Below, piece after piece: positions 63,097-63,185 of a DNA stretch of 64,000 nucleotides. This stretch comes from a virus. Its lineage: Duplodnaviria; Caudoviricetes. The translations under genes were made by a program, and so were the position numbers. The stretch's first letter is position 1, and each line of letters starts with the position of its first letter. Location of the stretch: positions 7,842 through 71,841 of the IMG/VR virus record IMGVR_UViG_3300015607_000169; one strand, given 5' to 3'. The notes beneath the pieces were generated by a model. That model was given only the letters and a program-made list of their open reading frames with translations, ran no database searches and was not told the DNA's origin.

Positions 63097-63185
63097 GCAA
63101 AAAGTGTGCCAAGATTGGGCCTGCAAACTTCGTGCCATGCAAGAAAACAAATACCATGCCAATCCTCAAAACAATTTCCGTGCCA
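63097..63185 (-). repeat. Tandem array of four sigma54-like motifs (period 26, 24, 24 nt)
   Basis: TGGCACACTTTTTGC, TGGCACGAAGTTTGC, TGGCATGGTATTTGT, TGGCACGGAAATTGT. Confidence 0.75.

What the first reader, a model, noticed from the sequence alone, without database searches (positions are those of the whole stretch)
63097..63185. Tandem array of four RpoN-box motifs, possible sigma54 decoy or roadblock
Seen: four same-orientation TGGCA(C/T)-N5-TTG(C/T) motifs at 26/24/24-nt intervals, antisense to the early genes, with GCAAGAAAA after the 2nd and 4th (48-nt super-repeat) and an IHF-like site (ATTCAATACCTTG, 63220-63232) upstream on that strand. Spacing this tight leaves no room for four functional promoters with their own genes. 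Inference: a sponge that titrates host sigma54-RNAP (shutting down sigma54 regulons such as the Psp envelope-stress response, flagella or nitrogen genes), or an array for a phage protein with an RpoN-like HTH.
Basis: partly seen in the sequence, partly recalled or inferred. Interest (0 to 1): 0.75.

Follow-up and report, generated by a model that had tools for sequence, protein, structure and literature searches.

The report
Tandem sigma-54-type boxes, phage early cassette
Four closely packed DNA sites that look like binding sites for the bacterial sigma-54 RNA polymerase are real. They are an expanded copy of a single such site found in the early promoter/terminator cassettes of this group of uncultured T4-type phages, and similar tandem arrays occur in many unrelated phages, but who binds them and what they do is untested.

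Summary
There are four same-strand TGGCAY-N5-TTGY boxes at 63097, 63123, 63147 and 63171 (minus strand), 26/24/24 nt apart. The window has five such boxes, all within 215 bp, against 0.5 expected.

- A fifth, convergent box lies at 62971-62985 (+).
- The first box (U1) belongs to a 117-nt module that is repeated at 61452-61568.
- The whole region is a T4-type early cassette of the PeSL kind: stem-loop, then box, then a sigma70-like promoter.

In six related contigs a single antisense box sits 12-14 nt from the foot of the stem-loop. The spacer sequence varies but its length does not. In a syntenic relative the cassette after the DUF932 gene has one box. Here about 145 nt carrying three more boxes and a decayed hairpin (the "IHF-like site") is inserted.

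Tandem arrays of sigma54-type boxes, mostly 26-28 nt apart, occur in at least 120 other viral contigs. Positions my search left free match the sigma54 consensus.

Best reading (0.45): a multi-site landing pad for host sigma54-RNA polymerase. It is silent, or fires antisense into the stem-loop. The decoy idea is neither supported nor excluded; the roadblock idea is disfavoured. The main doubt is that the -12 C is poorly kept in this clade, and no host, sigma54 gene or activator gene is known.

This scan has noted sigma54-type arrays on other phage DNA before (28 notes).

The parts
62114..62893 (+). Upstream early gene (DUF932 family, 259 aa)
   Evidence: Pfam PF06067 E 2e-26 and phrog_12094 E 9e-46. 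A homologue with 34% identity in relative G007 lies directly after a one-box cassette.
62915..62945 (+). Intrinsic terminator of the DUF932 gene
   Evidence: 9-bp stem with 6 GC pairs followed by a T run.
62971..62985 (+). Fifth sigma54-type box (P+), convergent with the array. Its predicted +1 at 62997 is the first base of the stem-loop module.
   Evidence: Exact pattern match. It is 93% complementary to box U1 (I4). The hairpin follows at the same offset as in relatives.
62997..63084 (.). Quasi-palindromic stem-loop module, copy B. It consists of hairpin 1, a GC-rich core with a 10-bp perfect palindrome at 63036-63045, and hairpin 2 at 63057-63082.
   Evidence: 117-nt repeat with 61452-61568, 78% identical (D2). 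It folds with z -2.7 on the + strand and -2.05 on the - strand. The hairpin-2 core is found in other viral, metagenome and MAG contigs.
63097..63111 (-). Box U1 (GG/GC), the canonical cassette box. Its predicted +1 is about 63085, at the foot of hairpin 2.
   Evidence: The same 14-nt core occurs at 61555-61568 in copy A.
63123..63137 (-). Box U2. A full consensus match including G after TGGCAC and A after TTGC.
63147..63161 (-). Box U3 (TGGCAT, GT at -12)
   Evidence: GT at -12 also occurs in E. coli pspA, pspG, ygeW and site OA06.
63171..63185 (-). Box U4 (GT at -12). It matches the E. coli pspA box at 14 of 15 positions.
63203..63232 (+). Decayed copy of hairpin 2.
   Evidence: D4; I3, I4.
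63112..63258 (.). Stretch of about 145 nt (U2-U4 plus the decayed hairpin) that the other cassettes of this phage and of relative G007 lack.
   Evidence: Alignment A2.
63272..63299 (+). Sigma70-like early promoter of the cassette (TTGAAT, 16 nt, GATAAT)
   Evidence: It is the fifth member of the repeat family D1.
63361..63861 (+). Downstream early gene (166 aa, no family)
   Evidence: A homologue with 28% identity is present in relative G003.
61452..61568 (.). Module copy A with a single antisense box at 61554-61568 (-12 reads GG). It lies 23 nt upstream of the -35 hexamer at 61592.
60332..60346 (-). A further near-consensus antisense box (TTCGC at -12, as in glnAp2). It lies 85 nt upstream of the -35 hexamer at 60432.

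Best explanation
The array is a local expansion of the single antisense sigma54-type (-24/-12) box that belongs to the early promoter/terminator cassettes of this group of uncultured T4-type phages.

A standard cassette reads, on the gene strand: stem-loop module, 12-14 nt, box on the opposite strand, 21-23 nt, sigma70-like promoter, gene. Because the box is on the opposite strand, its predicted start point falls at the foot of the stem-loop. In the window U1 keeps this geometry. About 145 nt with three further boxes and a decayed hairpin has been inserted behind it.

I read the four boxes as a multi-site landing pad for host sigma54-RNA polymerase. Closed complexes sit there without transcribing. 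If a host activator is on, they fire leftwards into the stem-loop and the 3' end of the DUF932 message. That direction is head-on to a fifth, convergent box at 62971. With neighbours 24-26 bp apart, probably only alternate boxes can be filled at once.

Shown: the sequence, the statistics, the cassette architecture, the insertion, and the recurrence of such arrays in other phages. Inferred: that sigma54 polymerase binds, that anything is transcribed, and any effect on phage or host.
For: 1. All 5 exact boxes of the window lie in 215 bp, against 0.5 expected.
2. In the four units the motif positions are kept while the other positions are near random.
3. Positions outside the search pattern fit the sigma54 consensus. 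T precedes TGGCA in 3 of 4 boxes, G follows TGGCAC/T in 3 of 4, and A/T follows TTGY in 3 of 4. In 289 arrayed boxes from other viral contigs the same free positions read T 69%, G 72% and A/T 89%, with C preferred over T at -12 by 92%.
4. In 15 boxes from six contigs the hairpin starts at a fixed offset after the box (TAA at 13-15 nt), while the spacer sequence differs. This puts the conventional +1, 12 nt after the -12 C, at the foot of the hairpin.
5. The box always points away from the sigma70-like promoter. Its distance to that promoter varies between lineages, 21-23 nt versus 30-75 nt. The box is therefore tied to the hairpin, not to the promoter.
6. The syntenic cassette after the DUF932 gene in relative G007 has one box.
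The period peaks at 26-28 nt. In one family of 8 contigs the core columns are 96% identical against 74% between boxes.
8. The array DNA has no RNA structure of its own, z +1.2 and +1.45. This fits a protein-binding stretch.
Against: 1. In this clade (G000 plus G007) the -12 C is not kept: 4 boxes have GC, 2 have GT and 4 have GG. In 135 ChIP-proven E. coli sites, by my reading of the two tables, C is missing in about 11 and GG never occurs.
2. The host is unknown, so the presence of rpoN is unknown.
3. No activator gene and no recognisable upstream activator site were found.
4. U2-U4 have no hairpin at the canonical offset and nothing obvious to transcribe.
5. RNAalifold finds no shared structure in the first 43 nt downstream of 15 boxes. 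A defined sigma54-made RNA is therefore not supported.
6. In one other contig (L201) a four-box array, followed by further box-like sites that I read by eye, sits between a similar hairpin and a sigma70-like promoter in the opposite orientation. This weakens the argument that the start falls at the hairpin foot.
Confidence: 0.45

Rival explanations
1. The boxes are operators for some other DNA-binding protein, from the phage or the host. This protein would control the adjacent sigma70-like early promoter, and the likeness to the sigma54 consensus would be incidental.
For: - The -12 C is free to vary in this clade, while TGGCA and TTG are invariant.
- In G000 copy A and in three G007 cassettes the box ends 21-23 nt before the -35 hexamer, so its centre is near -65, a typical activator position.
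- Some cassettes have an inverted partner of the GTGCCA half between the box and the -35 hexamer. Copy A has one at 61562-61590, and G006 has an 8-nt inverted repeat 17 nt apart.
- The N5 spacers of two box types are shared between G000 and G007.
Against: - Ten specified positions with the exact sigma54 spacing, plus three flanking preferences, all match sigma54.
- The distance to the -35 hexamer is not conserved between lineages, but the distance to the hairpin is.
- No candidate regulator shared by the box-bearing contigs was found among the shared proteins. All the contigs are fragments.
Confidence: 0.2
2. Pure decoy or sponge. The boxes are never fired. As phage DNA replicates, they soak up the scarce host sigma54 and so blunt sigma54 regulons such as Psp, nitrogen, flagella or RNA repair.
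For: - The boxes are packed too tightly for independent promoters.
- No activator is encoded.
- Tandem arrays recur in many unrelated phages. In at least one case the array has the opposite orientation relative to the neighbouring promoter, which suits an orientation-free role.
- In E. coli most sigma54-bound sites are transcriptionally inactive (PMC4591121).
Against: - The standard single box has a fixed orientation and a fixed distance to the hairpin in 15 cases, which a pure sink would not need.
- U3 and U4 deviate from the consensus, so they are not built for the tightest binding.
- There are seven boxes in the contig, so any titration would depend on phage copy number.
- Nothing here measures binding.
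Confidence: 0.15
3. Neutral scar of cassette shuffling. Recombination between repeated cassettes stacked box-bearing fragments, and the extra boxes have no function of their own.
For: - U2-U4 and the decayed hairpin are an insertion relative to the other cassettes.
- The region is a patchwork of cassette pieces.
- PeSL cassettes are known to mediate insertions, deletions and exchanges (PMC2839356, PMC4122927).
- U3 and U4 depart from the consensus, as decaying copies would.
Against: The motif positions are kept while the rest of each unit has diverged to near-random identity. This pattern points to selection on the motif. Arrays of the same kind are also conserved and widespread elsewhere.
Confidence: 0.1
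4. Iterons of a replication origin, bound by a phage initiator.
For: There are four direct repeats about 24 nt apart in non-coding DNA. Hairpin 2 carries a 9-mer that fits the DnaA-box consensus (my reading). DnaA-box pairs lie next to box arrays in some other contigs.
Against: - Only a bipartite core is conserved, not the whole unit.
- No initiator gene is adjacent.
- T4-type phages are not known to use iteron origins (my knowledge).
- Only 10 of 120 array loci have two or more DnaA-box-like sites nearby.
Confidence: 0.03
5. Roadblock. Bound sigma54 polymerase physically stops read-through from the DUF932 gene into the next cassette.
For: The complexes would face oncoming polymerases head-on, upstream of the next promoter.
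Against: A canonical terminator and a long stem-loop already lie between the gene and the array. In E. coli, intragenic sigma54 sites had no effect on the overlapping genes, and the authors say this effectively rules out roadblock repression (PMC4591121).
Confidence: 0.04

Closest known systems
Bacterial sigma54 (RpoN) -24/-12 promoters, e.g. E. coli pspA, pspG, glnAp2
   Same: The boxes have TGGCAC/T, five bases, then TTGC/T, with GG and GC(T) exactly ten bases apart. The flanking preferences (T before, G after, A/T after) also fit. U4 matches the pspA box at 14 of 15 positions. The box at 60332 has the TTCGC of glnAp2.
   Different: There are four boxes 24-26 nt apart with no genes of their own, and they are antisense to the local genes. 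No activator gene or upstream activator site was found. The -12 C is poorly kept in this clade. Binding is untested and the host is unknown.
PeSLs, the promoter-early stem-loop cassettes of T4-type phages (Arbiol et al. 2010, PMC2839356; Comeau et al. 2014, PMC4122927)
   Same: Repeated intergenic cassettes in the variable early region of a T4-type myovirus. Each has a stem-loop directly upstream of a sigma70-like promoter, and they are linked to insertions and exchanges between relatives.
   Different: The published PeSLs have no sigma54-type box in the 2014 paper (term search). The 2010 paper was not searched for one. Here a box sits between the stem-loop and the promoter on the opposite strand. 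The stem-loop is a long double-hairpin palindrome, and its 21-nt core is shared by contigs of 34-56% GC.
Transcriptionally inactive, intragenic or antisense sigma54 binding sites of E. coli and Salmonella (Bonocora et al. 2015, PMC4591121; PMC3844500)
   Same: These are good sigma54 motifs that are not placed to drive a gene, many of them antisense. They are bound by holoenzyme that does not transcribe.
   Different: Those sites are single and scattered inside genes. Here the boxes are stacked in tandem in non-coding phage DNA and form part of a mobile cassette.
Sigma54-like promoter of Pseudomonas phage YuA (Ceyssens et al. 2008, as cited in PMC10914365)
   Same: A phage that relies on host sigma54 for part of its transcription.
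   Different: YuA has single promoters that head genes in a siphovirus. It has no tandem arrays and no stem-loop coupling.

Membership tests
Sigma54 -24/-12 promoter / binding site | GG at -24 and GC at -12, ten bases apart, within TGGCAC-N5-TTGC | tested here: met
   U1, U2, P+ and the box at 60332 keep GG and GC. U3 and U4 have GT at -12, as pspA and pspG do. Copy A has GG at -12, which none of 135 E. coli sites shows.
Sigma54 -24/-12 promoter / binding site | Flanking consensus: pyrimidine before TGG, G after TGGCAC, A/T after TTGC | tested here: met
   Each preference holds in 3 of the 4 boxes. The same preferences are seen in 289 arrayed boxes from other viral contigs.
Sigma54 -24/-12 promoter / binding site | Conservation of the -12 C across related sites | tested here: not met
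   In the G000/G007 clade there are 4 GC, 2 GT and 4 GG boxes. In the second phage group (G001, G002, G005, G006) all boxes have GC.
Sigma54 -24/-12 promoter / binding site | An enhancer-binding AAA+ activator and its upstream sites | tested here: not met
   There is no PF00158 match in G000-G004 and no PF04552 match in G000-G008. PF00158 was not searched in G005-G008. No recognisable activator site was seen. A host activator remains possible, and all the contigs are fragments.
Sigma54 -24/-12 promoter / binding site | Bound by sigma54 holoenzyme; host has rpoN | not testable with these tools
   The host is unknown. No cultured relative exists: the best major-capsid match is 32% identical and there is no DNA match.
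Sigma54 -24/-12 promoter / binding site | A transcript starting about 12 nt after the -12 C | not testable with these tools
The predicted starts of P+ and U1 fall at the two feet of the stem-loop (sequence).
PeSL cassette of T4-type phages | Stem-loop directly upstream of a sigma70-like early promoter, repeated in the variable early region | tested here: met
   There are five sigma70-like promoter copies and two full modules plus remnants. The phage has a T4-type head, portal, terminase and sheath.
PeSL cassette of T4-type phages | Cassettes mark insertions or exchanges between related phages | tested here: met
   The stretch of about 145 nt with U2-U4 is absent from the syntenic G007 cassette. 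The genes between cassettes differ among G000, G003 and G007.
PeSL cassette of T4-type phages | Demonstrated promoter and terminator activity | not testable with these tools
   Only consensus scans and folding energies are available.
Iteron-type replication origin | Direct repeats conserved over the whole unit, next to an initiator gene and an AT-rich unwinding stretch | tested here: not met
   Only the bipartite core is conserved. The neighbours are a DUF932 gene and a 166-aa protein with no family.

The most novel reading that the evidence does not exclude
Phages of many lineages carry tandem arrays of sigma54 binding sites, spaced about two and a half helical turns apart so that bulky holoenzymes could sit on alternating faces of the DNA. 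These arrays would act as DNA sponges or holding platforms that capture the host's scarce sigma54 polymerase during infection. That would be a DNA-based, protein-free way of disabling or commandeering a host transcription route. The window's four-box array would be one such device, grafted into a T4-type early cassette.
Probability: 0.17. Interest if true: 0.85.

Novelty: new variant of a known kind. Interest (0 to 1): 0.6.

Why it matters
Sigma54 is almost absent from the phage literature; I found one well-known case, YuA. If these boxes bind sigma54 polymerase, a whole set of uncultured T4-type phages has built a host sigma54 site into the mobile cassettes that shuffle their early genes. Many unrelated phages would also be stacking such sites in arrays with a preferred period.

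That would raise testable questions. Do phages time or shut off early expression through a host stress-responsive polymerase? Or do they titrate that polymerase away from host defences and stress responses? The array is short enough to test directly on a plasmid.

If the boxes are read by another protein, the work still defines a new composite form of the PeSL cassette.

Tried and rejected
- Rfam at a permissive threshold over 59500-64000 gave no relevant family. The tRNA scan found none.
- There are no close relatives. No DNA match was found in the phage collection. The searches with the DUF932 protein, the 166-aa protein and the terminase gave only distant loci without boxes.
- A 16-nt piece of the array matched 89 viral stretches once each (80 listed). 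I took these as chance matches and dropped them.
- The weak 23-29-nt matches of hairpin 2 in Bacillus SPO1-like phages (E 2-8) I treated as chance.
- RNAalifold on the 43 nt downstream of 15 boxes gave no consensus structure. I therefore do not claim a defined sigma54-made RNA.
- A crude ORF-context count for arrays in other contigs was uninformative because of spurious ORFs.
- A strict regular expression for hairpin-to-box distances caught only four cases. The table is the one I used.
- A chimeric assembly as the cause of the GC jump at about 60.5 kb is rejected. Relatives G003/L045 and G007 show the same terminase-proximal, GC-richer early region with the same cassettes.
- An assembly artefact as the cause of the array is rejected, because the units are only 50-79% identical.
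- A Mot-box or middle-promoter reading of the flanks had no suitable -10 element (by eye).

Full report
**Where the finding lies.** The window is the last 64 kb of a 71.8-kb linear IMG/VR contig with an estimated completeness of 61%. It is a distant T4-type myovirus. Major head protein, head protease, portal, large terminase and tail sheath all lie on the minus strand from about 0.3 to 55.5 kb. The best cultured match to the head protein is 32% identical, in T4-like cyanophages. From 55.5 kb to the contig end, small genes run on the plus strand. GC rises from about 0.37 to about 0.50 at 60.5 kb. The finding lies 0.8 kb from the contig end, in the 467-nt gap between a DUF932 gene (62114-62893, +) and a 166-aa gene of no family (63361-63861, +).

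**The observation.** TGGCAY-N5-TTGY matches the minus strand at 63097, 63123, 63147 and 63171, giving steps of 26, 24 and 24 nt. It also matches the plus strand once, at 62971. These five are the only matches in the window, against 0.5 expected, and no shuffle reached five. The rest of the contig has none. The 48-nt super-repeat is real. Boxes U1 and U2 have GG/GC. U3 and U4 have GT at -12, a variant that proven E. coli promoters pspA and pspG also carry. U4 matches the pspA box at 14 of 15 positions. Outside the ten motif positions the four units are about as alike as random DNA, apart from a flank shared by U2 and U4. As RNA the array is unstructured, z +1.2 and +1.45. The 'IHF-like' site has one mismatch to the IHF core. 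It lies inside a decayed copy of a hairpin described below.

**The surroundings.** The gap is a patchwork of a repeated cassette. A 117-nt module occurs twice, at 61452-61568 (copy A) and 62995-63111 (copy B), 78% identical. Each copy is a quasi-palindrome made of two similar hairpins around a GC-rich core, and each ends with the same 14-nt core of box U1. Five copies of a sigma70-like promoter (TTGAAA or TTGAAT, 16 nt, GATAAT) lie on the plus strand. Four of them sit six bases before an ATG. The gap therefore reads, left to right:
- terminator of the DUF932 gene (62915-62945);
- box P+ (62971, +);
- module B (62997-63084);
- boxes U1-U4 (minus strand);
- a decayed hairpin (63203-63232);
- the sigma70-like promoter (63272-63299);
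- the next gene.

The conventional start point, 12 nt after the -12 C, falls at 62997 for P+ and at about 63085 for U1. These are the two feet of the module (sequence).

**Relatives.** The 17-21-nt core of hairpin 2 led to other contigs.
- G003 and G007 belong to the same clade as the window. They share the terminase (54-56% identity), and the portal (61% identity) is shared with G003. The adjacent plus-strand genes, DUF932 and the 166-aa protein are each shared with one or both.
- G001, G002, G005 and G006 form a second group, with canonical TTGACA-17-TATAAT promoters and Shine-Dalgarno sites. In G002 the small genes lie on the strand opposite the boxes.
- Apart from G003, whose cassettes lack boxes, these contigs share one cassette plan on the gene strand: stem-loop module, 12-14 nt, box on the opposite strand, then the sigma70-like promoter.
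- In 15 boxes from six contigs the hairpin begins at a fixed offset (TAA at 13-15 nt) while the spacer sequence differs.
- The distance from box to -35 hexamer is not fixed: 21-23 nt in G000 copy A and G007, and 30-75 nt in the other group.
- G003 has the modules and promoters but no boxes, so the module can exist without the box.

This is the PeSL design described for T4-type phages: a stem-loop plus an early promoter that mediates gene shuffling. A term search of the 2014 PeSL paper found no sigma54-type element.

**The array as an insertion.** In G007 the DUF932 homologue is followed by a module, one box of the same type as U1, 21 nt, a promoter and a gene. Alignment with the window shows that about 145 nt, roughly 63112-63258, is extra in the window. 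This stretch holds U2-U4 and the decayed hairpin. Normally there is one box per cassette. No other tandem array was present in about 1.25 Mb of loci fetched up to that point. The only other close pair was a convergent box pair in G001 and G002.

**Are such arrays special to this phage?** No. By my arithmetic the pattern has a chance of about 1e-10 per position and strand. A collection of 1e11 bases would then give about 20 doublets by chance and essentially no arrays of three or more.
- The 120 loci hold 133 arrays: 90 of two boxes, 28 of three, 11 of four, and 4 of five to seven.
- The period is far from uniform: 24 nt occurs 14 times, 25 nt 19 times, 26 nt 55 times, 27 nt 44 times and 28 nt 41 times. 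My search could not see first pairs wider than 28 nt.
- Positions the search left free match the sigma54 consensus: T before TGGCA 69%, G after it 72%, A/T after TTGC 89%, and C over T at -12 92%.
- The carriers are mostly unrelated to this phage.
- In one family of eight contigs the core columns are 96% identical against 74% between boxes.
- Several arrays also contain convergent pairs. A few are flanked by DnaA-box pairs and followed by a canonical sigma70 promoter and a gene.
- In one contig (L201) a four-box array, followed by further box-like sites that I read by eye, lies between a similar hairpin and a sigma70-like promoter but points towards the gene.

A period of 26-28 bp is about two and a half helical turns. 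Neighbouring complexes would then face opposite sides of the DNA. This is my inference. The window's 24-26 nt is at the short end of the distribution.

**Reading.** The simplest account of a ten-position match with exact spacing and matching flanks, repeated across many phages, is that host sigma54 polymerase binds these boxes. The fixed offset to the hairpin and the fixed orientation of the single boxes suggest more than passive binding. They fit a start point at the foot of the stem-loop, giving short RNA antisense to the terminator end of the upstream early message. They could also fit a steric relation between the bound polymerase and whatever binds the palindrome. I therefore read the window's array as an amplified entry site for sigma54 polymerase, silent unless a host activator is on (confidence 0.45).

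**Doubts.**
- In the G000/G007 clade the -12 C is not kept: 4 GC, 2 GT and 4 GG. By my reading of the two tables of the E. coli ChIP study, about 11 of 135 sites lack that C and none has GG.
- No sigma54 domain was found in nine contigs (G000-G008) and no activator domain in the five searched (G000-G004). All are fragments.
- No consensus RNA structure follows the boxes.
- The host is unknown and I could get no expression data.

These points keep alive the rival that another protein reads the boxes (0.2). A neutral recombination scar (0.1) fits the insertion but not the selective retention of the motif positions. The roadblock idea is weak: two terminator-like structures already precede the array, and sigma54 sites inside E. 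coli genes had no such effect. Iterons are unlikely (0.03).

**Novelty.** Sigma54 promoters and PeSL cassettes are both known. A sigma54-type box as a fixed, antisense part of such cassettes appears in none of the papers I searched, and neither do tandem arrays of these boxes in phages. Earlier notes of this scan report sigma54-type arrays on other phage DNA, 28 notes in at least 26 genomes. They also report the convergent boxes, the second module copy and the leaderless promoters in this same window. I used those as leads and re-tested what I rely on.

Noticed in passing
window 60500-64000: GC rises from about 0.37 to 0.46-0.56 over the last 3.5 kb. Relatives G003/L045 (GC 0.46-0.57) and G007 show the same terminase-proximal, GC-richer early region, so this is not a chimeric join.
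   Followed up: partly
window 63057-63082 and 61515-61539; L039-L050: The 21-nt core of hairpin 2 is identical in contigs of 34-56% GC from varied sources (one is a TARA scaffold) and in one MAG. Its two imperfect stem positions are G-T wobbles on the early-gene strand only. Its loop region holds a 9-mer that fits the DnaA-box consensus TTATNCACA. In the MAG locus L039 it lies among classical DnaA boxes, and in L043 it follows a tRNA 3' end.
   Followed up: partly
window 60432-60459, 61592-61619: The -10 region of the leaderless promoters reads GCCGATAAT, which contains the -10 consensus of flagellar sigma28 (GCCGATAA, from memory). The relatives' promoters do not have it.
   Followed up: no
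window 63272-63308: The fifth copy of the leaderless promoter family is followed by ATC where the others have ATG. The next gene (63361) instead starts 60 nt further on, behind a Shine-Dalgarno site.
   Followed up: no
window 61562-61590: In copy A the GTGCCAC end of the box has an inverted partner (GTGGGCAC) 14 nt away, directly before the -35 hexamer. G006 cassettes show an 8-nt inverted repeat of the same half-site 17 nt apart.
   Followed up: partly
L035:10825-11325 (G002): A 166-aa protein matches phage RNA polymerase sigma factor families (phrog_1740, E 2e-7). Its gene lies next to the box-bearing cassette region of G002.
   Followed up: no
L172, L177, L257, L261 (other viral contigs): Long non-coding control regions hold three to seven sigma54-type boxes. 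They include convergent pairs 5-7 nt apart and, in L177, L257 and L261, a pair of perfect DnaA boxes. In L172 and L177 a canonical sigma70 promoter and a gene follow.
   Followed up: partly
L007:1047-3910: A terminase relative of the window (50% identity) carries four copies of the same hairpin type at intervals of 0.8-1.1 kb but no sigma54-type box.
   Followed up: no
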